Source: a virus
DNA: 64,000 nucleotides
Virus record (IMG/VR): IMGVR_UViG_3300046535_002009
Span: 46,061-110,060 of that record
Direction: 5' to 3' (one strand)
Positions 2,619-39,254 of this stretch are shown one piece after another. The stretch's first letter is position 1, and the number at the start of each line of letters is the position of its first letter. The translations under genes were made by a program, and so were the position numbers. The notes under the pieces were generated by a model. It did no database searches. It was not told the DNA's origin and was given only the letters and a program-made list of their open reading frames with translations.

Positions 2619-2878
2619 CCATCCGCATGACCAAGCTGACCTGGCGAGTCCTGGCCGCGATCCACGCCCGGCCGGAGCCGACCTACGGCGGCGAGCTACG
2701 GGAGGAGACAGGCATCCAGTCCGGCACCCTGTACCCGCTCCTGGTCCGGCTGGAGGGAGCCGGCCTGCTGACCTCCCGGTGGGAGGAGCCCGCGGAGTAC
2801 GAGGCCTTCAGCCGGCCCCGCCGCCGCTACTACGCCCTCACCGAGGCTGGCCGGGCGGCCGCCGGGACGAAGGCCTGA
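2615..2878 (+). CDS. PadR-family transcriptional regulator
   Basis: GTLYPLLVRLEGAGLL...RPRRRYYALTEAG wHTH signature. Confidence 0.9.
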   Translation: MTIRMTKLTWRVLAAIHARPEPTYGGELREETGIQSGTLYPLLVRLEGAGLLTSRWEEPAEYEAFSRPRRRYYALTEAGRAAAGTKA

Positions 2879-3288
2879 TGTCGACGGGCCCGGTCGTGGC
2901 CTCTGGTGACGAACAGCTGCCCCTTGCGGACCCTCCCCGGCCGGCCGGGGCGGCGCGGCGAGTGGAGTGCCGCCGCTGCCACCGGGCACTGACCGACCCG
3001 GACTCCCGGCTGCGCCGCATCGGCCCGGACTGCGAGCACCTGATCGCGGCCGCGCGTCGGCACGACATCGACCAGGACCCGCTACCCGGGCTGGAGTGGC
3101 GCGATAGCCGGGACGCTTCATGCCCCCTGAGCTCTCTTGCCGCCCCTGAGGACCAGCTGTACAACGCCATGCTGGCCTGGGACGGGTCAGCGGCATTCAC
3201 AGAGACCTCCACCCGGGCCTCCCCGCCCTCCCGGAAGAGAGCGGGGCTCGCACTCAACGACTGGTCACTCGAAAGACTCGCTGGCTGA
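2878..3288 (+). CDS. DUF6011-like zinc-ribbon protein with C-terminal extension
   Basis: CRRCHRALTDPDSRLRRIGPDC motif. Confidence 0.7.
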   Translation: MSTGPVVASGDEQLPLADPPRPAGAARRVECRRCHRALTDPDSRLRRIGPDCEHLIAAARRHDIDQDPLPGLEWRDSRDASCPLSSLAAPEDQLYNAMLAWDGSAAFTETSTRASPPSRKRAGLALNDWSLERLAG

Positions 3289-3655
3289 TGTTTGCCTCGA
3301 CGAGAGTCGTCTCCCCCACCTGCGTCCAGTTCCGCCAATATGCCGCGCCGCCATGGTTCTCGCCCATGCACTGGCAGTCGCAGTCGTCGCCTTCCGCGTC
3401 GCGGCAACGGATATCGCATCTGCTGTTCGTCCGAAAGTCGATCGCCACCTCGACCACCCCGAAGCGATCTGCCAGGGCCTCGACTGTCGCGCGCATGTGC
3501 TGGCGCGAGATCTCCCAGCATTTCTCCGCCCCGTTCCAGTCCGGCCGCACCAGGCTGCCGAGGGTGCGGTGGATGAAGGCTCGGTTACCCACGGCGTACG
3601 GCATGCGGACCCGGATCCGCCCGGTGCCGACCGGCCGGTAAACCGTGGCAATCAC
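3254..3655 (-). CDS. Hypothetical protein with Cys-rich metal-binding motif (third gene of helicase operon)
   Basis: CDIRCRDAEGDDCDCQCMGENHG; 1-nt overlap with the upstream gene. Confidence 0.75.
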   Translation of the reverse strand: MIATVYRPVGTGRIRVRMPYAVGNRAFIHRTLGSLVRPDWNGAEKCWEISRQHMRATVEALADRFGVVEVAIDFRTNSRCDIRCRDAEGDDCDCQCMGENHGGAAYWRNWTQVGETTLVEANISQRVFRVTSR

Positions 3656-4239
3656 TAGGCCTCCTCGCTGAGAATGCGTACGAGGTCGACAATGGCCGCG
3701 CTAGACAGGTGCTTCCGCAGGACGCGCGCCGTGGCGTCAGTGTCCTCCACCGGCACGCTGACTGCTCGCCTCCGGAAGCCCGCCTGCACCATGGCGGCGT
3801 GCGCGGACAGGTGCCCCGCGAGGACCTCGGCATGCAGCTCGGGGGCGTCCTTGCGGAGGCGGCGAAGGGCCGAGGTCTGAGAGTTCCCGTCCGGCTGGGC
3901 AAGGTTGACATTGTCACCCTTGCTTCGGTCGCCCCCGTGCGGAGCCTGAAGGGCCTGGTCGAGCAGGTCGAGCGCCACCGGATCGTCCGCGACCACCCGC
4001 TGGACGAGCGCCACCGACGCCCCGAGCCCCTTCAGCGGCGGCGTGGTCACAAAGTCGGCGAAGCTCGCGTGCTCCACCAACTCGCCCCGCACGGTGACGA
4101 AGGACCGCCAGGACCCATCAGCGAGCAGCCGGCGCAGGAGCTCCGGAGCGTTCTCCAGCCCGCTCCCGCCCCGCTCCAGCGCAGAGGACAGCGCCTCAAC
4201 GAGGGTTCCCCGTGCGCGCCCCTCCTCCCGCGCGGTCAC
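3655..4239 (-). CDS. Hypothetical protein with HGGDRS motif and helical C-terminal domain (second gene of helicase operon)
   Basis: GTGA coupling to the helicase stop; ALRRLRKDAPELHAEVLAG...AGFR. Confidence 0.8.
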   Translation of the reverse strand: MTAREEGRARGTLVEALSSALERGGSGLENAPELLRRLLADGSWRSFVTVRGELVEHASFADFVTTPPLKGLGASVALVQRVVADDPVALDLLDQALQAPHGGDRSKGDNVNLAQPDGNSQTSALRRLRKDAPELHAEVLAGHLSAHAAMVQAGFRRRAVSVPVEDTDATARVLRKHLSSAAIVDLVRILSEEA

Positions 4240-6161
4240 TGAGCCTCCCGAAGCATCTGCTCCACGAATTCCAGTCCGCGCTGCAGCTGCTGGACGCTCG
4301 CGTCAGCGCGCTTCCGCACGCCCATGACCTGGTTCACCCGCCACTGCAGCTCCGGGTGCTCCAGCCCAAGCTTGAACACCGCGTGGCGCGAGCGCTTCGT
4401 CAGCTGGTCGGCCAAGGCCTTCCGCCTCTTGTGCAGGGGCTCGTCCGCGGCCCCGATCGCCACCCTGCTGCCCTGCGGCGGGATGGGCATCGGCACCGTG
4501 CCGACCTTGGTCAGCTCGCCGAGCTCCTCGCGGACGAGCTTGCGCATCGAGGCGAGCACGCTCGGCGGGAAGTCGTGCTTCTTAAGCAGTTCCTCCGCGC
4601 GCTCGTTCTCCTCCACGGTCCACTCGGTGCCGGCATGGATCGCGCCGTGGAACGTGGGCTGGGACGCGGCGAGGGGGATCCGGGCGAACAGGTCCAGCAT
4701 CTGTTGGCCGTTGCCGTCGCTCAGCTCGCGCTCGATCTCCTCCTCCTGGAGGTCGAGCTCGTGCCGGATCTCCTGCTCGATCTGCGCCGCCATGATCCGG
4801 AGGCCCGAGAGCGCTGGCGCGAACACCGTGGCGATCTGCTCGTCAGCCTTGCCTTGGCGCCGGACGAACCGGCCGACCGCCTGGCGGAAGAACATCTCCG
4901 TCTTCGTCTTCGTGGCGTACACCCCGAGGGCCAGGCGCGGGACGTCGACGCCTTCCGACACCATCCGGACAGCGACCAGCCAGCGCTGGCTGCCCTCGGA
5001 GAACCGGTCGATGCCGAGCTTCGCCTCGGGGCCGTCCTCGGAGAGCACCACGACGGGGTCCTCGCCGGTGATGTCCTTCAGTATCTTGGCGTAGGCCTTC
5101 GCCTGCGGGGCCCGGTAGGCGATGACCAGGCCGCCAGCCCGCGGCGCCTCCTCCCGCATCGCCGTGAGCGTGCTGTCCGCCTTCAGTAGCAGGCCCTTCA
5201 TCCAGCCCGTGGCCGGGTCCAGCGCGGTCTCCAGGACGGCGGACACGTCGCCGCGCTGCAGTTCGGCCGACAGGTTGGCGCTGGAGGTCACCGACCCGGA
5301 GTCCATCCACTTCATCTCGCCGTCGTAGAAGTGGAAGTCGACCTGGCGGCAGACGTCGTCCCGGATGGCCTGGCCATAGCTGTATGTGTAGTCAGCGATA
5401 GAGCGCGGCACTCCGTCGCTGTCCTTCTCATACCGCACGAAGGGGATCGGGTTGTTGTCCGACCGGAACGGCGTGCCGGACAGGGCCAGGCGGCGCGACG
5501 CCTCGGAGAAGGCGTGCTTGACCGCGGCACCCCACGCCTTCTCATCGCCGGCATGGTGGACCTCGTCGAGGATCACCAGGGTCTTCTGCTGGCAGCCGAG
5601 GCGGTGGAGGTCAGGCTGCGAGGCGACCTGGGCATAGGTGACGGCCGCGCCGCGGTAGTCCGCCGGGTTCTCCAGGCCGTCGCTGTTCTTCGTCGTGGGG
5701 TCGATCTCGAAGCCGCACTCGTGTGCGGCCGTCGCCCATTGCATCTTGAGGTGCTCGCTCGGCACGACGATGACGATGCGCCTGACCACCCCGCTGTCCA
5801 TCAAGTCGCTGGCTAGCCGGAGCGCGAACTTGGTCTTCCCGGCGCCCGGGGTGGCGACCACGAGGAAGTCCCTGGCATTGCGCGTGACATAGGTGGTCAG
5901 GGCAGCGCGCTGCCATTCGCGGGGGTCGGGGCCAGTCCATGCCATGTGCGTCGAGCCCTTCTTCAGGTTGCAGTCCGGGCAGAGCGCTTGCCCGTTGATC
6001 ACGTCAGTAGGGCCGCCGGCAGACCATGGGGTGATGTGGTCGCCGTGCCAGCCCGGGAGGAGCCGGGTCCCGCACTTCGTGCAGGTGCCACCCGAGGCGA
6101 GGTACATCGCCACGCGCTCGGAAGAGTTGAACCGGCGGCGGGTGGGGTCCGGAGTCACCAC
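4236..6161 (-). CDS. HNH endonuclease fused to SF2 DEAD/DEAH-box (type III Res-like) helicase
   Basis: N-terminal CTKC..DHITPWSAGG..N..ALCPDCN HNH; Walker A ATPGAGKT, DEVHH, SGTP, MVSEGVDVP, QAVGRFVR. Confidence 0.92.
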   Translation of the reverse strand: MVTPDPTRRRFNSSERVAMYLASGGTCTKCGTRLLPGWHGDHITPWSAGGPTDVINGQALCPDCNLKKGSTHMAWTGPDPREWQRAALTTYVTRNARDFLVVATPGAGKTKFALRLASDLMDSGVVRRIVIVVPSEHLKMQWATAAHECGFEIDPTTKNSDGLENPADYRGAAVTYAQVASQPDLHRLGCQQKTLVILDEVHHAGDEKAWGAAVKHAFSEASRRLALSGTPFRSDNNPIPFVRYEKDSDGVPRSIADYTYSYGQAIRDDVCRQVDFHFYDGEMKWMDSGSVTSSANLSAELQRGDVSAVLETALDPATGWMKGLLLKADSTLTAMREEAPRAGGLVIAYRAPQAKAYAKILKDITGEDPVVVLSEDGPEAKLGIDRFSEGSQRWLVAVRMVSEGVDVPRLALGVYATKTKTEMFFRQAVGRFVRRQGKADEQIATVFAPALSGLRIMAAQIEQEIRHELDLQEEEIERELSDGNGQQMLDLFARIPLAASQPTFHGAIHAGTEWTVEENERAEELLKKHDFPPSVLASMRKLVREELGELTKVGTVPMPIPPQGSRVAIGAADEPLHKRRKALADQLTKRSRHAVFKLGLEHPELQWRVNQVMGVRKRADASVQQLQRGLEFVEQMLREAQ

Positions 6162-6208
6162 GCGGTGGCGGTCGGCTGGCGGAGGGCGTTAGGTTGGGCC
6201 TGAGCCAT
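6155..6208 (-). CDS. Putative 17-aa leader peptide MAQAQPNALRQPTATAW
   Basis: GAGGAG RBS upstream; TGA overlaps the helicase GTG. Confidence 0.35.
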   Translation of the reverse strand: MAQAQPNALRQPTATAW

Positions 6209-6436
6209 GGGAGATCGCACTCCTCTGGTCGGCGCCCTCGGCGGGGATCGCGAGTTCCCGCCCGAGGGCATCACTGTGCCTGCACTGGTTCGCAGATGAA
6301 CCAGACAGAGAAACATTACTCCGAGTGGACGACAATCTGACTAGTTGTCACTCTGTGCCACATGCGCACTTGAGCGACTGAAGTGGTCGGCACTGAGTGT
6401 CGTATCGGGAAGTGATGCGGCGACACCCCGTATCCA

Positions 6437-6979
6437 TCAGGCGATGGCCTTCTCGTAGACCTTCGCCTGGTCTGGCGTCAGCAGATGGGAGACGCGGACG
6501 ACGACCGCGCCATGCTGGTAGATGTAGTCCGGCCTGATGAGCCCGCCGAGGGCCTGCTGCGCCCCGTCGACGTACTTGACCCAGACGGTGGCGTCGTCCG
6601 CGTTGGGGAAGACCTCGACGGTACCGCCGTAGGAGATGCTGTCACGCCGGTCCTTGGTGGCGTCCTCCTTGGCCTGGGGGCTGTCGGCGACGCGGGTGTC
6701 GTCGAACGCGGTCTTGCTCAGGTACTGGTGCGGGCGGCCGAGCCGGCCATTGGGGTCGCTGGTCGCGTCATAGGTGATGGTGAGCTTGACCGGCAGGCCC
6801 TTGGTGGTGAGCTGCCGGGTGATGCCGGCGGCGTCGGTGGCCTTGGCCGGCGGGGCCGGCGCGGGTGCTGCGCTGCTCTTGGCGGCGGCCGGCGTGCCGG
6901 TGCCCGCGGACATGGTGGTGCAGGCGGTGGAGGCTGCGAGGACGGCGGCGGCGAGGGTGAGGGTGGTGCGGACGCGCAT
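6437..6979 (-). CDS. Lipoprotein
   Basis: GGGGAG RBS, signal peptide with lipobox-like STAC, Ala/Pro linker, globular domain. Confidence 0.8.
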   Translation of the reverse strand: MRVRTTLTLAAAVLAASTACTTMSAGTGTPAAAKSSAAPAPAPPAKATDAAGITRQLTTKGLPVKLTITYDATSDPNGRLGRPHQYLSKTAFDDTRVADSPQAKEDATKDRRDSISYGGTVEVFPNADDATVWVKYVDGAQQALGGLIRPDYIYQHGAVVVRVSHLLTPDQAKVYEKAIA

Positions 6980-7074: not shown

Positions 7075-7782
7075 TCAGTACGCTGCGGCCCGCACGCCGT
7101 CCGGGATGCCGGCGGCGAGGATCCCGCCGTCGACCGCGGTGACGGTGCCGCGCTCGTCCGGGAGGAGAACCTCCAGCGTTCGGCCGGCACCCGGTGCTCC
7201 GCGGCCGGACGCCCGGATGTGGACCCGGCGGGACATGAGCTGGCCGTGGCCGTCGCCGAGCCCGGTGCACTCGCGGGCGGCCACGTCGAGCTGCAGGTGC
7301 GCGCCGGGCCAGGGGCCGGGGGTGAGGAGCACGGTGCCGTGCTGGCGCAGCCGGGCGCCGAGGCGGCTGGCCGTGGCCGGCGAGGGGCCGACCGGGCCCA
7401 GGAGGAGGATCTCGACCGCGGGGAGCAGCCCGGCGCAGACGTCGGGCCACTGGTCGCCAGGGGTGTCGGCGAGCAGGAGCCGGTCGAGGTCGATGCCGTA
7501 GCCGGCGGCCGCGGCCAGGCCGAGGTCGGGGAGGGCGACAGCGGCGGTCCAGACGTCGGGCCGGTGGACGGCGGGTCCGGCCGCGAGGGCGAGGAGCAGG
7601 CCGGGGTCGCGGACGACGGCGACAGTGCCGCGCTGGAGGCCGCCGTGCGGGAGGAGGGTCGCGAGTTCCGGCTGGACGGGCAGGGTCTGTGCGGCCTCGG
7701 CCCGGGCGCGGGCGGCCGGGGAGGTGGCTTCGAGGAGGTCGGTGAGGGCGGGGCGCTCGCGCGGCTCGGCGGGGGCGGTCAT
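7075..7782 (-). CDS. imuA: ImuA'-like (Rv3395c-type) RecA-fold protein
   Basis: LPVQPELATLLPHGGLQRGT, LPDLGLAAAAGYGIDLDRL, GLGDGHGQL...V..SGRG resemble actinobacterial ImuA'. Confidence 0.78.
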   Translation of the reverse strand: MTAPAEPRERPALTDLLEATSPAARARAEAAQTLPVQPELATLLPHGGLQRGTVAVVRDPGLLLALAAGPAVHRPDVWTAAVALPDLGLAAAAGYGIDLDRLLLADTPGDQWPDVCAGLLPAVEILLLGPVGPSPATASRLGARLRQHGTVLLTPGPWPGAHLQLDVAARECTGLGDGHGQLMSRRVHIRASGRGAPGAGRTLEVLLPDERGTVTAVDGGILAAGIPDGVRAAAY

Positions 7783-32351: not shown

Positions 32352-32609
32352 TCAGGCAGCAAGATCGGTGGGGGTGGACAGGTCGGCCGTGAAGGCGAGC
32401 AGGCCACGCTGCATCGCGATGGCGACGGCGTGCGGGGTGGTCCTGGCTCCCAGGCGGCGGCGCATGGTTCCTGCCTGGGTGCGGACGGTCTGGTGCGACA
32501 CGCGGTGGAGTGCTGCGACCTGGCGGAGGGTGAAGCCCTCGGCGAGGCCGTGGAGTACCCGCATCTCGGCGACGGACAGCTCACCGGGCGGGATCGGGTA
32601 CGTGCTCAC
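32352..32609 (-). CDS. Stand-alone LuxR-type HTH protein
   Basis: LSVAEMRVLHGLAEG...TVRT...RRLGA..HAVAIA. Confidence 0.8.
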   Translation of the reverse strand: MSTYPIPPGELSVAEMRVLHGLAEGFTLRQVAALHRVSHQTVRTQAGTMRRRLGARTTPHAVAIAMQRGLLAFTADLSTPTDLAA

Positions 32610-33448
32610 GCTGCCGTCTTCTCTTCCTCGGCCGGGACGAGTGGCCAGCGGCCGTCGATCACGGCGTGGGGGTCGCGGCTGGCGCCGGCCTTCGGGCTGC
32701 GCAGGTAGGCCTCGAAGGACGTGGCCTGTTCGATGGCCCAGTGGACCTGCCGGGCGTGCAGCTCCTCGGCGGTGATGCCGCCGACCTCGTCGAACTGCTC
32801 GCTTCGCTCGGCCCGGACGAAGTCGGGGCGCTGGATGCGGGGCTTGGACCCGATGGCGCCGATCTTCCAGGCGATCTGCCAGGCCTTCAGCGCGTCGTAC
32901 TCGGCGCCGTGGGCGGCTTCCTCGTCCCAGGGGAGGTCGTAGACCGCGGCGAGGGTGCGGAGTTGGCGGGCGCCCTGCTCCTTGGAGACCCGCTTGCGGT
33001 ACGGCAGGACGTGCTTGTCGAGGACCATCGTGTCGACGACCGGGCCGAGGGTGCGGCCGAGGGTCTCGACGAGGCCGGCGCCGGTGTGCCGCCTGGCCTC
33101 GTGGTTGAGGAGGTTGAGGTCGTAGCTGCCGATGTTGTGGCCGACCAGGACGATGCCGGAGCGGACGGCGTCGAGGACGGCGGTCACGATCTGGGGTACG
33201 GCTTCGTCGGCGGGGGTTCCGTGCTCGGCGAGGTAGAAGCCGGTGAGGCCGTGGACGGCGGCCGCCGCGTCGGGCATGGGCACGCCCGGGTTGACGGTCC
33301 AGGTGTGCTTCGCCGGGGGCTGGTTGCCGCCGATGAGGATGAGCGCGGCCTGGGCGATCCGGTCCTTGGTGACGTCGGTGCCGGTCGTCTCAAGGTCGAA
33401 GGCGGCCATGCGTCGGGTGTGCCAGGCGGCGGGTCGGTAGGTGTTCAC
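32606..33448 (-). CDS. DnaQ-like DEDDh 3'-5' exonuclease
   Basis: FDLETTG, GHN..YD, VDT..LD, AHGAEYD. Confidence 0.92.
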   Translation of the reverse strand: MNTYRPAAWHTRRMAAFDLETTGTDVTKDRIAQAALILIGGNQPPAKHTWTVNPGVPMPDAAAAVHGLTGFYLAEHGTPADEAVPQIVTAVLDAVRSGIVLVGHNIGSYDLNLLNHEARRHTGAGLVETLGRTLGPVVDTMVLDKHVLPYRKRVSKEQGARQLRTLAAVYDLPWDEEAAHGAEYDALKAWQIAWKIGAIGSKPRIQRPDFVRAERSEQFDEVGGITAEELHARQVHWAIEQATSFEAYLRSPKAGASRDPHAVIDGRWPLVPAEEEKTAA

Positions 33449-33515: not shown

Positions 33516-33617
33516 TCAGCGGGGCGGGTGGTGCTTTCCGAGGAGGAGAGCGGCGAGGGATACGGCGGCCCAAGCGACGACGAGCGCCCAGAACACGGTC
33601 ACGGCGGTGTCGATCAC
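33516..33617 (-). CDS. 33-aa membrane peptide
   Basis: GTGA coupling; single TM. Confidence 0.45.
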   Translation of the reverse strand: MIDTAVTVFWALVVAWAAVSLAALLLGKHHPPR

Positions 33618-34630
33618 TCGGCACCGTCCGGCTCTTCGGTCGGCCAGTCCTCGTCGTGCTCCTCGATGACCTCGGCGTCGATCGCGCCGTCGGCGTCGGG
33701 CTCCGGCTCCCCCGCGGCGGGCTTGCCCCGACGCTCGGACTCGGCCTTAACCTCGGCGGCTCGGCGCTTCAGCAGCTCCTTCAGCTCCGGAGTGAGGTCG
33801 CGGTTGCGGTCGGCCAGGCGCCAGGTGTCCTGGACGTCCTCGACGTGGAGGGCAGCGGCGGCCAGGGCCACGTAGTCGGGCCGGGCGGCCTCCAGGGCGA
33901 GCCGGGGCGCAGCCGAGGGGTTGAGGGCGATCTCGGTGGGGATCGGCCCGGACAGGGCCTGGCGCGGGGTCAGGCCGCGTACCTCCACGACCACGACCGG
34001 GAAGTGCTTCGTCTTGCCCTCGGCGACCCGCATCCGGGGCTCGATCCGCATCGTCACCGGGACGAGGCCGCGACCGCCGGTCCCGGCGAGGACCATGTCG
34101 ACGGTCCCGGCCATCTCACTCGCGGCGTAGAACGAGTGGGTCTCGCAGAGCCAGGTACCCAGGCCCGGGACGTCCGGCAGGACGACGGAGATCCGGGTGG
34201 TCGCCGAGCACACGGTGCCCTTGGGCCGCAGGTGCCAGTCCTCGCCGCACTCGGCGGCGCAGAGGCACGGCCTGCGACTGATCAGCTCGGTCTCGCCGTT
34301 GCACCGCCGCTGGCAACCGCCCTTGGTCCAGAGCTCGTTGTACTGGGACAGCGGGTCGCCCGGGGGCAGGAGCGCATCGACCTGCTCGGCGTTGGTGATG
34401 AGCCGCCACTGCTCGGGCCCGTTGCCCTGCGGCTGCCAGCGGGTCACCTTGCCGCCCCACAGCTCGGCGGCGACGTGGAGCTTCTCGTCGGTATGGCTGG
34501 TCAGGACCCAGGTCTTCGACTTGACCGGGACGGGCCGCTTGCCCGGGTCCTTGTGCGGCACGGACCACCCGGTCCGCATCTTGCCGAGGGTGACGGCCCG
34601 GCGCTGCGTGTTGAGGATCCGGCCGCCCAT
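33614..34630 (-). CDS. Gp3-like recombination directionality factor family protein
   Basis: LGKMRTG, ELWGG, YNELW..GGCQRRCNG, C..TTRI, LG.W..THSFYAA; acidic tail. Confidence 0.65.
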   Translation of the reverse strand: MGGRILNTQRRAVTLGKMRTGWSVPHKDPGKRPVPVKSKTWVLTSHTDEKLHVAAELWGGKVTRWQPQGNGPEQWRLITNAEQVDALLPPGDPLSQYNELWTKGGCQRRCNGETELISRRPCLCAAECGEDWHLRPKGTVCSATTRISVVLPDVPGLGTWLCETHSFYAASEMAGTVDMVLAGTGGRGLVPVTMRIEPRMRVAEGKTKHFPVVVVEVRGLTPRQALSGPIPTEIALNPSAAPRLALEAARPDYVALAAAALHVEDVQDTWRLADRNRDLTPELKELLKRRAAEVKAESERRGKPAAGEPEPDADGAIDAEVIEEHDEDWPTEEPDGAE

Positions 34631-37721: not shown

Positions 37722-39254
37722 CTACGTCGCGACGGGCTCCAGGACCTTGGGCCACTCCTCGAACCCAGGCTGCCCGAAGAAGATCAGGTTCACCCGGGGC
37801 CCAACCGGCTGGCCGTGACCCTTCCTCAACGCCGGCAAGACCTCGACCCGCAGGACCTTGCGGATGACGTGGCGCTTCTGCTCAAGGACGAGCTCCTCCT
37901 CGTCGTTCCACATCTCGTCCAGCGCATCCGGATCCATCCCGATGAGACGGTCCAGCAGCGGGTCACCCACCGACAGAAGCCCCTTCACGATGGCCTCGGA
38001 CGCCCGGGCCAGCGGGATCAGCCGCTGCTCCAGCTCGGCGAGCGAGGCGACGGTCAGGCCGGGCAGGCCGGTCACCGGGTCGAACTCGGTCGCCCGCGCC
38101 CGCGCGTCTCGGAGCTGCTCGGTGATCGCCTTCAGCTTGGCCCGCTCCCGTTCCAGTTCACCGCTCGACGCCTGTCGGCGCATCGCCGCGGCTGCCTTCT
38201 CGGAGGACAGCCACTGCAGCAGGGCCTCCTCGACGTAGGCCTCCAGGAGCTGCTTCATGATGGACAAGTGCTCCACGCGGCACCGGTAGAGCGCGCCACG
38301 GCGGTACTTGGGCTGTGCCAGCCGCACCGTCATCGTGCTGTTGCGGATGTCCACGTCGGCACGGCAGAGCGAGCAGAGCGCGATCCCGGACAGCAGGTGC
38401 TCGACGCCGGTCGTGTGGGTCGTCCTGCGGTCCGGGTCGTCGAGCATCCGCTGGACACGCCAGAAGACGTCCTCGTCGACGAGCCCCTTCCAGGCAGCCG
38501 GATACTCGGTGTCGTGGTGGACTCGGATCCCGATGTACGCCCTGTTCTGCAGGATCGCGCGGATGCCCTGGTCCGTCATCAGCGGGCGGCGGGGCAGCAT
38601 GAAGGCGACGAGGCGCTTGATGGAGATCTTCTGGTCCGCCATGTTGAACAGCTTGACGAGTACGGGCGCTTCGTCCGGGTGGGCGACCTGCCCGAGAAGT
38701 TCGCCAGTGTCCGGGTCATAGACCCGCTTGAAGCCGAAAGGCGGGGTGCCGGTCATCCAGCCCCGCTGGGCGCTGAGGCGTGCGGTCCGGACGTTGCGGG
38801 CGATGATCGTGTCGCCCTCGCCCTCGGACTCCACGGCGTCCCGGGCGGTCTCGCGCCGGTCGGATGCCTTGGTGAGGTCGTAGACCCGGCCGTCGTAGCA
38901 CCAGAGGACGCCGGTCTCCATGCACAGCGCGCGGAGCCTCACGTACCCGTCGAGCGTGCGGTTCGTGCGGGACCTCTCGGCGTACACGATCACGTCGATT
39001 TTGCCCGCGCGGACGTCTTCGACCATACGCTCGTACTCGTCACGGACCTTCGTGGCGCGACTGCTTGCCGAACGGTCGCGGTCCTCGTAGAAGTCGACAA
39101 TCTCCCAGCCGCGCTCGTTGCACTCGGCGCGGCACTCGGCGAACTGGTCCTTGATGGATCGTCCGCGGTAGCGCGGGTCTCGAGATGCCCGACCATACAC
39201 AGCGGCCCGCAGCGGGCGAGTCGCCTGCGCGGGCACCGAGTACAGGTAGTTCAT
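37722..39254 (-). CDS. int: Large serine recombinase (integrase)
   Basis: YGRAS catalytic motif, S..DQ, SR..R, PFGF recombinase domain, LLSGIALCSLC zinc ribbon, coiled coil. Confidence 0.95.
   Translation of the reverse strand: MNYLYSVPAQATRPLRAAVYGRASRDPRYRGRSIKDQFAECRAECNERGWEIVDFYEDRDRSASSRATKVRDEYERMVEDVRAGKIDVIVYAERSRTNRTLDGYVRLRALCMETGVLWCYDGRVYDLTKASDRRETARDAVESEGEGDTIIARNVRTARLSAQRGWMTGTPPFGFKRVYDPDTGELLGQVAHPDEAPVLVKLFNMADQKISIKRLVAFMLPRRPLMTDQGIRAILQNRAYIGIRVHHDTEYPAAWKGLVDEDVFWRVQRMLDDPDRRTTHTTGVEHLLSGIALCSLCRADVDIRNSTMTVRLAQPKYRRGALYRCRVEHLSIMKQLLEAYVEEALLQWLSSEKAAAAMRRQASSGELERERAKLKAITEQLRDARARATEFDPVTGLPGLTVASLAELEQRLIPLARASEAIVKGLLSVGDPLLDRLIGMDPDALDEMWNDEEELVLEQKRHVIRKVLRVEVLPALRKGHGQPVGPRVNLIFFGQPGFEEWPKVLEPVAT

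What the first reader, a model, noticed from the sequence alone, without database searches (positions are those of the whole stretch)
3254..6161. Three-gene HNH-SF2 helicase operon, candidate undescribed defence system
Seen: translationally coupled genes for an HNH-helicase fusion with intact motifs, a 194-aa protein with an HGGDRS motif and helical C-terminus, and a 133-aa protein with a CxxxC-x7-CxCxC-x4-H cluster. No methyltransferase is present. Established: nuclease-helicase combinations are common anti-phage effectors and prophage accessory loci are defence hotspots. Inference: a modification-dependent or abortive defence module that matches no named system I recognise.
Basis: partly seen in the sequence, partly recalled or inferred. 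Interest (0 to 1): 0.72.

Follow-up and report, generated by a model that had tools for sequence, protein, structure and literature searches.

The report
Phage HNH-helicase and partner genes
A 110-kb actinomycete phage carries a nuclease-helicase fusion gene that is almost always followed by one unnamed DNA-binding-type partner gene in related phages and prophages; the third gene of the reported "trio" is a local add-on, and the pair looks more like phage DNA replication/recombination machinery than a defence system, although defence is not excluded.

Summary
The three overlapping minus-strand genes are real: an HNH + SF2 helicase fusion (641 aa), a 194-aa protein and a 133-aa Cys/His-cluster protein. 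The window is part of a 110-kb IMG/VR phage record.

Only two of the three genes form a conserved unit. The helicase sits directly upstream of a P0002 homologue in 18 of 18 viral contigs (one copy is cut by an IS) and in about 30 non-redundant loci, including phage PIS 136 and two Streptomyces plasmids. P0003 joins the pair on one related contig only. It belongs to a separate large family (655 cluster representatives), some fused to EndoVII/HNH-type nuclease motifs.

PADLOC matches cover the helicase core only. The closest relatives are a cellular actinobacterial SF2 helicase (47-51% identity) and archaeal XPB. Where neighbours can be named, they are often replication or recombination genes: DnaB, a primase-helicase, DnaQ, RusA (also one P0002-RusA fusion), and a YqaJ-type nuclease plus Pol III alpha in PIS 136. 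Many homologues carry a QLxLF-like, possibly clamp-binding, motif.

Best reading (0.45): a phage helicase-nuclease that processes branched DNA, with a DNA-binding partner. A prophage defence or exclusion module remains possible (0.3). First readers noted the same pair on other DNA in this scan.

The parts
6162..6436 (-). Upstream intergenic region of lower G+C. It holds a GC-rich hairpin at 6234-6269, probably the terminator of the upstream lipoprotein gene. It also holds a 17-codon ORF (6155-6208) preceded by GAGGAG, whose TGA overlaps the helicase start.
   Evidence: No sigma-70-type promoter was found by the consensus scan.
4236..6161 (-). P0001, 641 aa: an HNH nuclease + SF2 (ResIII/DExH, XPB-like) helicase fusion with a family-specific C-terminal region.
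5937..6161 (-). HNH (beta-beta-alpha-Me) domain, residues 1-75: C27xxC30, D41-H42, N56, C61xxC64-N65.
   Evidence: Pfam PF01844 6e-11. phrog_1035 'endonuclease VII' 7e-6 and other HNH PHROGs. Conserved in 23 homologues.
4845..5921 (-). Helicase core, residues 81-439: Walker A K109, D199-E-V-H, SGTP, Q427xxGRxxR.
   Evidence: 47% identity to a cellular Streptomyces helicase.
4686..4706 (-). QQMLDLF, residues 486-492, in the acidic linker after the helicase core: a QLxLF-like, possibly beta-clamp-binding, motif.
   Evidence: 16 of 23 homologues have Q..[LMF].[FL] in the linker, at the same aligned place in the block printed, against 1.2 expected from shuffles. Consensus taken from PMC4549789. 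Clamp binding is inferred, not shown.
3655..4239 (-). P0002, 194 aa: the conserved partner. It has a helical N-domain (about residues 1-98), a variable linker that contains HGGDRS (nt 3922-3939), and a conserved C-terminal helical domain (residues about 118-156, nt 3772-3888) of HTH/ParB-like appearance.
   Evidence: 781 homologues and no Pfam domain. Alignment. Model pLDDT 81. Family mostly viral. Adjacent to the helicase in about 30 loci.
3254..3655 (-). P0003, 133 aa: a small alpha/beta domain plus a Cys4-5/His cluster (residues 80-101, nt 3353-3418). It is an optional third gene.

Best explanation
The conserved unit is two genes. The first encodes an ATP-driven SF2 (XPB/ResIII-type) DNA translocase fused to an HNH (EndoVII-like) nuclease. 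The second encodes an obligate partner, P0002, whose conserved C-terminal helical domain probably binds DNA.

I read the pair as part of the DNA replication/recombination toolkit of temperate actinomycete phages. The helicase would remodel or branch-migrate stalled forks and recombination intermediates on replicating phage DNA, and the fused HNH would cut them. That would combine in one protein what T4 does with UvsW and endonuclease VII. P0002 would target or regulate the enzyme. A QLxLF-like motif in the linker may tether it to the host sliding clamp.

In this phage lineage a third small Zn-cluster protein, P0003, has been coupled to the pair. Its family is elsewhere fused to EndoVII/HNH-type nucleases, so it probably acts as an extra DNA-binding or nuclease-accessory subunit.

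Shown: the gene structure, intact and conserved catalytic motifs, the strict helicase-P0002 linkage, the phage origin, and the neighbours. Inferred: the substrates, clamp binding, the roles of P0002 and P0003, and the biological role.
For: Linkage: the helicase lies directly upstream of a P0002 homologue in 18 of 18 viral contigs and in about 30 non-redundant loci. It also does so in phage PIS 136 and in two Streptomyces plasmids.

Phage origin: the family is mostly viral. The flanks include minor tail and endolysin genes.

Neighbours:
- DnaB is directly upstream on the closest relative's contig and within 5 kb in three other lineages.
- A Toprim+AAA_25 primase-helicase directly follows the pair in L067, and RusA lies 1.3 kb downstream in L068.
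- One protein fuses a P0002-like part to RusA.
- DnaQ is nearby in L057.
- In PIS 136 the pair lies between DnaB/DnaQ and a YqaJ-type nuclease, VRR-NUC and Pol III alpha.
- An ImuA'-like gene neighbours the helicase both here and in the distant locus L043.

Relatives: the closest are a cellular actinobacterial helicase at 47-51% identity and archaeal XPB, which works with the nuclease Bax1 (PMC7293015).

Motifs: a clamp-motif-like sequence is conserved in an otherwise variable linker.

This phage's inventory: in the 110-kb record P0001 is the only ResIII helicase. No RusA, VRR-NUC, Endonuclease_7, DnaB-like AAA_25, Pol A, Prim-Pol or YqaJ was detected.

P0003: 5 of the 150 best relatives are fused to a DHCHxHGWIRGxICxxCN nuclease motif.
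Against: There is no experiment on any member. About two thirds of the loci have only unnamed or regulatory neighbours.

In several prophages the pair is an isolated two-gene unit between opposite-strand genes. That is moron-like.

In this window it lies far from the Gp3-like/DnaQ-like early region, among a lipoprotein, a membrane protein, a Schlafen-like protein and a PadR regulator.

One viral copy is interrupted by an IS605-type element, so the helicase is dispensable at least in that element.

The pair is sporadic: 4 of 301 Streptomyces species genomes.

The clamp motif is short and degenerate, a subclade lacks it, and the homologues are related, so the shuffle test overstates significance.

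Fold searches did not identify the P0002 domains.
Confidence: 0.45

Rival explanations
1. A prophage-borne defence or superinfection-exclusion module. P0002 senses or marks foreign DNA, and the HNH-helicase translocates on it and degrades it, in the way nuclease-helicase effectors such as Hna, Nhi or type I/III restriction enzymes do. P0003 is a lineage-specific modulator.
For: The nuclease-helicase architecture fits. The best-scoring named models for the helicase N-lobe are PbeA (2.3e-26) and dnd_restrict_1 (9e-19). The pair is a lone unit flanked by opposite-strand genes in several prophages. In this window it has its own upstream region and lies among accessory genes: a lipoprotein, DUF2079 and Schlafen/AlbA_2. 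Its flanks are mosaic even between close relatives. P0003 homologues elsewhere sit between lysis and integrase genes. An unchecked first-reader note, e1-6017425, places a similar pair between a lysin gene and attP.
Against: The PADLOC and NCBIfam hits cover only the generic helicase core and fall far below the family cut-offs. P0002 and P0003 have no hits. No sensor, toxin, methylase or other defence hallmark recurs in 137 neighbour proteins. Replication and recombination neighbours recur instead. The closest homologue is a cellular housekeeping-type helicase.
Confidence: 0.3
2. A replication-initiation module. P0002 binds a specific site (an origin), the HNH nicks there, and the helicase unwinds to start rolling-circle or theta replication by host enzymes.
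For: The phage lacks a recognisable polymerase, primase or replicative helicase. P0002 has an HTH-like conserved C-domain. A P0002-like gene follows DnaB without the HNH-helicase in L027. DnaB or a primase-helicase is adjacent in several loci.
Against: No iteron-like repeats lie in or near the genes. HNH domains of this type are not known initiator nickases (my own knowledge). One copy is disrupted by an IS. Solo P0002-like genes occur in plainly cellular contexts.
Confidence: 0.1
3. A host-takeover or counter-defence tool. A clamp-tethered nuclease-helicase attacks host replication forks or host DNA, or competing elements, early in infection.
For: There is a clamp-motif-like sequence and a nuclease + translocase architecture. 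The phage carries other host-interaction and RNA-repair genes according to earlier unchecked notes.
Against: The same motif occurs in the cellular paralogue, which argues for an ordinary replisome or repair association. The element is temperate, with a serine integrase. No direct evidence exists.
Confidence: 0.1

Closest known systems
Archaeal XPB-Bax1 helicase-nuclease machine (PMC7293015, PMC7672443)
   Same: S. tokodaii XPBII is the best solved-structure sequence match to the helicase core (E 3e-11, residues 81-439). In both cases an SF2 3'-5'-type translocase works with a nuclease on branched or bubble DNA.
   Different: Here the nuclease is an HNH fused to the N-terminus, where XPB has its damage-recognition domain. 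There is no Bax1 homologue. The motif reads RSD where XPBII has RDD. The partner P0002 is unrelated to any XPB partner. P0003's N-domain resembles the XPB damage-recognition domain only weakly (Z about 4.1-4.3 over 52-58 residues).
Conserved cellular actinobacterial DEAD/DEAH (ResIII) helicase of about 560-600 aa, uncharacterised
   Same: 47-51% identity over the whole helicase core and the start of the linker, including a Q..L.F motif in the Streptomyces copy.
   Different: The cellular protein has no HNH, has a different C-terminus, has no P0002 next to it, and sits in housekeeping contexts.
T4 UvsW helicase plus endonuclease VII (my own knowledge)
   Same: A phage SF2 branch-migration helicase and a beta-beta-alpha-Me junction nuclease. 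P0001's HNH matches the PHROG 'endonuclease VII'. The UvsW N-domain appears among the weak fold matches of P0003 (Z 4.9).
   Different: No detectable sequence relationship to UvsW. Here the two activities are fused. The function is untested.
PbeA (PbeABCD) and the Dnd-associated restriction helicase TIGR04095
   Same: These are the best-scoring named defence models for the helicase N-lobe.
   Different: Only about 160 residues of the helicase core align. The scores are far below the curated cut-off (67.8 against 600 bits). No other Pbe or Dnd components and no phosphorothioation genes were seen.
Single-protein nuclease-helicase defences (Hna, Nhi) and ZRANB3-type HNH-translocases (my own knowledge)
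   Same: The general logic is the same: a translocase delivers a nuclease to DNA structures.
   Different: The helicase clades and domain order differ. No PADLOC match to such systems was found. Those proteins have no obligate P0002-type partner.

Membership tests
HNH endonuclease (PF01844) | Profile match over the curated cut-off, with the beta-beta-alpha-Me residues (D-H, N, N/H) and two CxxC pairs | tested here: met
   42.8 bits against a cut-off of 21.4. The residues are conserved in 23 homologues.
SF2 ResIII/DExH helicase (PF04851 + Helicase_C) | Motifs I, II, III and VI, plus a profile match | tested here: met
   ResIII scores 64.8 bits against 22.5. Helicase_C scores 21.1 bits, just under its cut-off of 23.5. 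The motifs are conserved.
XPB (ERCC3/Rad25) helicases | N-terminal damage-recognition domain on the helicase itself | tested here: not met
   The P0001 N-terminus is an HNH domain. The cellular paralogue starts directly at motif I.
XPB (ERCC3/Rad25) helicases | Helicase core related to XPB, with the RED motif | tested here: inconclusive
   XPBII is the best PDB hit at E 3e-11. RSD aligns with the RDD of XPBII. There is no hit to eukaryotic or A. fulgidus XPB, nor to TIGR00603.
PbeABCD / Dnd-linked restriction | Full-length PbeA-type protein plus partner genes | tested here: not met
   Only the helicase core aligns. P0002 and P0003 have no PADLOC hit. TIGR04095 scores 67.8 bits against a cut-off of 600.
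Any defence system in PADLOC-DB v2 | Specific model hits to all components | tested here: not met
ParB-type HTH DNA-binding domain (for the P0002 C-domain) | Profile or fold match to the ParB DNA-binding domain | tested here: inconclusive
   No Pfam hit. Only a weak Foldseek row to 6s6h (probability 0.10). The resemblance of ALRRLRKDxPxLHxxVLxGxLSxHAA to the ParB helix pattern is from my memory.
Beta-clamp-binding proteins | QLxLF-type motif that binds DnaN | tested here: inconclusive
   A motif-like sequence is conserved in 16 of 23 homologues. Binding cannot be tested here.
Holliday-junction resolvases (RusA, EndoVII) | Junction-specific cleavage | not testable with these tools
   Association only: RusA as a neighbour and as a fusion, and EndoVII-type fusions in the P0003 family.

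The most novel reading that the evidence does not exclude
The HNH-XPB-like helicase and its obligate partner P0002 form a new two-gene, phage-borne nuclease-helicase system of inter-element conflict (defence or exclusion). It may be tethered to the host sliding clamp so that it attacks replicating foreign DNA. P0003-type Zn-cluster proteins would be exchangeable nuclease adaptors.
Probability: 0.3. Interest if true: 0.7.

Novelty: new variant of a known kind. Interest (0 to 1): 0.45.

Why it matters
The work defines a strictly linked, widely spread but unnamed phage gene pair. P0002 has 781 homologues and no Pfam family. It also defines a separate large family of small Zn-cluster proteins (P0003) with no annotation.

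If the pair is a clamp-tethered branch-processing enzyme, it would show how large temperate actinophages that lack their own replisome manage forks and concatemers. If it is a defence module, it would be a new nuclease-helicase system in Streptomyces prophages.

Either way, the cellular paralogue, a conserved uncharacterised actinobacterial helicase, becomes easier to study.

Tried and rejected
I took contexts from the search for related loci, plasmid and phage records, and my own ORF calls. My ORF caller often truncates P0002.

Searches that gave nothing:
- P0002 and P0003 have no hit in Pfam, PADLOC or NCBIfam. P0002 has none in PHROGs; P0003 has only one marginal PHROG hit, phrog_6842.
- P0002 has no convincing fold match in the PDB (Foldseek E > 0.3; best VIA Z 6.1 on helical repeats) and no PDB sequence hit.
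- BFVD gave only uncharacterised phage proteins.
- A sigma-70 promoter/terminator scan found nothing useful.
- No iteron-like repeats were found.
- Three literature searches found no description of this pair.
- The upstream 180-aa and 235-aa proteins have no Pfam, PHROG or PDB hits.
- Only DnaQ, the helicase and P0002 are shared between PIS 136 and this phage.

Ideas rejected or downgraded:
- P0003 as a split XPB-type damage-recognition domain. Z is only about 4, eIF1/ACT-like folds score as well or better, and none of the 150 best relatives is long enough to be a helicase fusion (longest 411 aa). I keep this as a weak lead only.
- P0002 as homologous to the C-terminus of the cellular helicase. 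No similarity was found.
- HGGDRS as a functional motif. It is not conserved.
- The helicase as a bacterial XPB orthologue. The cellular paralogue lacks the damage-recognition domain.
Full report
**What is there**

The window is bases 46061-110060 of a 110,060-bp IMG/VR virus record estimated to be about 90% complete. It is a temperate actinomycete phage. It has a serine integrase at 37722-39254, a Gp3-like recombination directionality factor at 33614-34630 and a DnaQ-like exonuclease at 32606-33448.

- 4236-6161: P0001, 641 aa
- 3655-4239: P0002, 194 aa
- 3254-3655: P0003, 133 aa

Position-specific G+C supports all three frames. Codon bias is weaker for the two small genes. The junctions are GTGA and TAGTG overlaps, each preceded by a GGAGG-type site.

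Upstream lies a 275-nt stretch of lower G+C. It contains a GC-rich hairpin (6234-6269) and a 17-codon ORF whose stop overlaps the helicase start. Downstream, a plus-strand gene (2878-3288) is coupled to a PadR gene. It converges on the 3' end of P0003 and overlaps it by 35 nt.

**The three proteins**

P0001 is HNH (PF01844) followed by a ResIII/DExH SF2 helicase. Every catalytic motif is conserved in 23 homologues, whereas the last 190 or so residues vary.
- The best solved-structure hit is S. tokodaii XPBII, over the whole helicase core (E 3e-11).
- The closest relatives of all are cellular. Each of three actinomycete genomes that carry the phage-type gene also has a second gene of about 600 aa that is 42-51% identical over the helicase core. 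The Streptomyces copy I examined in detail (47% identity) lacks the HNH and begins directly at motif I.
- Similar genes lie on Mycobacterium and Tsukamurella records.
- PADLOC hits (PbeA and others) and NCBIfam hits (dnd_restrict_1) cover only about 160 residues of the helicase core and are far below the family cut-offs.

P0002 matches no profile library but has 781 homologues.
- Atlas clusters that resemble it are 69-81% viral. Uncharacterised proteins of uncultured phages share its predicted fold.
- The alignment shows a conserved N-domain, a variable linker, and a strongly conserved C-terminal block: ALRRLRKDAPELHAEVLAGxLSAHAAMVQAGFR.
- From memory, the C-terminal block resembles the helix pattern of ParB-type HTH domains. 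The tools gave only a faint hint of that, so DNA binding is an inference.

P0003 folds with confidence (pLDDT 87) into a small alpha/beta domain followed by the Cys/His cluster.
- Its fold matches are all weak: CASTOR/ACT, eIF1, MutS domain I, the XPB damage-recognition domain and the UvsW N-domain, with Z between 4 and 6.
- A profile search found 655 cluster representatives, mostly stand-alone proteins of 110-200 aa.
- Of the 150 best, 143 keep the cluster. Five are fused to a DHCHxHGWIRGxICxxCN motif of the EndoVII/HNH type; one of these matches the Hpy99I active site at E 0.007. Five carry a C-terminal membrane anchor.

**Is it a three-gene system?**

No. P0002 homologues were collected from genomes (41 loci) and from viral contigs (18 loci).
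- The HNH-helicase is directly upstream in 18 of 18 viral contigs. In one of them (L056) only its first 190 or so residues remain, because an IS605-type element has been inserted.
- It is also directly upstream in about 22 genome loci, making about 30 non-redundant pairs.
- The same holds in phage PIS 136 and in two Streptomyces plasmids, where the genes overlap by 1 or 4 nt.
- No other gene recurs in more than 6 loci.

P0003 follows the pair only on one IMG/VR contig, the one with the 86%-identical helicase. It is already missing next to an 89%-identical helicase in Kitasatospora. Three other viral contigs have P0003 homologues without the pair, beside tyrosine integrase and lysis genes.

Solo P0002-like genes exist in plainly cellular contexts in Nonomuraea and Actinocorallia.

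The pair is sporadic: 4 of 301 sampled Streptomyces species genomes.

**Context of the pair**

The loci are phage-derived. They include minor tail, endolysin, XRE and GntR regulator, serine recombinase, NUDIX and ligase genes.

Where function can be named near the pair, it is mostly DNA replication or recombination:
- DnaB is directly upstream on the closest relative's contig and within 5 kb in three more lineages.
- A Toprim+AAA_25 primase-helicase directly follows the pair in L067, and RusA lies 1.3 kb downstream in L068.
- One NCBI protein fuses a P0002-like part to RusA.
- DnaQ and DNA methylases flank the pair in L057.
- In PIS 136 the pair sits between DnaB/DnaQ and a YqaJ-type nuclease, VRR-NUC and Pol III alpha.
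- A distant HNH-helicase in Actinoplanes (25% identity) is followed by a split P0002-like pair and then a homologue of this window's ImuA'-like gene at 7075-7782.

Against this, several prophages carry the pair as a lone unit between opposite-strand genes.

In this window the cassette is inverted relative to its closest relative. It sits among accessory-looking genes: a lipoprotein with signal peptide and lipobox, a DUF2079 membrane protein, a Schlafen/AlbA_2 protein and a PadR regulator.

In the 110-kb record P0001 is the only ResIII helicase. No RusA, VRR-NUC, Endonuclease_7, DnaB-like AAA_25, Pol A, Prim-Pol or YqaJ was detected.

**A lead on mechanism**

An earlier unchecked note on a cellular relative prompted me to examine the acidic linker after the helicase core. 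Sixteen of 23 homologues have Q..[LMF].[FL] in the linker; in the alignment block printed it falls at the same aligned place. Here it reads QQMLDLF, and elsewhere QGMLDF, QLSLI or QGAFDF. Residue shuffles give 1.2 on average, and none of 1000 shuffles reaches 16. The Streptomyces cellular paralogue has QDELPF at the matching place.

This resembles the bacterial clamp-binding consensus QLxLF (PMC4549789). The sequences are related and the motif is degenerate, so it is only a lead. It would place the enzyme at clamp-loaded DNA, that is, at forks and repair sites.

**Reading**

I commit to a phage replication/recombination helicase-nuclease that works with a DNA-binding partner (0.45). The rivals are:
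- a prophage defence or exclusion module (0.3)
- an origin-nicking initiator (0.1)
- a host-takeover tool (0.1)

Nothing indicates modification dependence or abortive infection.

First readers of this scan have flagged the same helicase + partner pair on other DNA: e1-6075658, e1-3488491 and e1-6017425. These are repeats of the idea, not independent evidence.

Noticed in passing
window 2878-3288 (+): An uncalled 136-aa gene is coupled to the PadR gene by TGATG. It carries a CxxC...GPDC motif of the kind common in actinophage small proteins. Its 3' end overlaps the 3' end of P0003 by 35 nt in convergent orientation.
   Followed up: partly
window 6437-6979 (-): The gene directly upstream of the trio encodes a 180-aa lipoprotein (signal peptide and LAASTAC lipobox), followed by a GC-rich hairpin at 6234-6269. 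It is a candidate exclusion-type surface protein.
   Followed up: partly
window 7075-7782 (-) and L043:8389-9231: The ImuA'-like 235-aa gene of this window has a 37-39% identical homologue just downstream of a distant HNH-helicase (25% identity) in an Actinoplanes locus. There, P0002 seems to be replaced by a 216-aa gene plus a 79-aa gene that carries the P0002 C-domain.
   Followed up: partly
L056:4332-6855: On one IMG/VR contig an IS605/TnpB-type gene on the opposite strand interrupts the HNH-helicase. Only its first 190 or so residues remain upstream of an intact P0002 homologue.
   Followed up: partly
L018 and L032 (Streptomyces sp. NBC_01390 chromosome, about 16-32 kb from each end): The same helicase-P0002 pair is present in both terminal regions of a linear 11.3-Mb chromosome, presumably inside the terminal inverted repeats.
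   Followed up: no
P0003 family (proteins P0146-P0294): This is a large unnamed family: 655 representatives, 377 of them at E <= 1e-10. It consists of small Cys/His-cluster proteins. Recurrent forms are fused to an EndoVII/HNH-type motif (P0175, P0194, P0235, P0244, P0291) or end in a Pro-rich segment plus a membrane helix (P0223, P0230, P0232, P0171, P0183).
   Followed up: partly
G000 whole record (110 kb): No Pol A, Prim-Pol, DnaB/AAA_25, RusA, VRR-NUC, Endonuclease_7 or YqaJ was detected. This large temperate phage seems to rely on host replication enzymes, or on unrecognised ones.
   Followed up: partly
L046 (S. atratus NZ_CP108279.1, 99-kb circular 'plasmid'): This record carries the pair among many small hypothetical genes, a GntR gene and a TnpB gene. 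Its size and gene content suggest a phage-plasmid or an extrachromosomal prophage.
   Followed up: no
L052:222-2003 (-) and window 4686-4706: The conserved cellular actinobacterial helicase (about 590 aa, 47% identical) shares with the phage enzymes a Q..L.F motif, followed by a S/A-x-x-F-D-R-A-I block, in its acidic linker. This protein appears to be uncharacterised.
   Followed up: partly
window 6155-6208 (-): A 17-codon ORF (MAQAQPNALRQPTATAW) with a GAGGAG site ends in a TGA that overlaps the second codon of the helicase gene. It may be a coupling leader or it may be chance.
   Followed up: no
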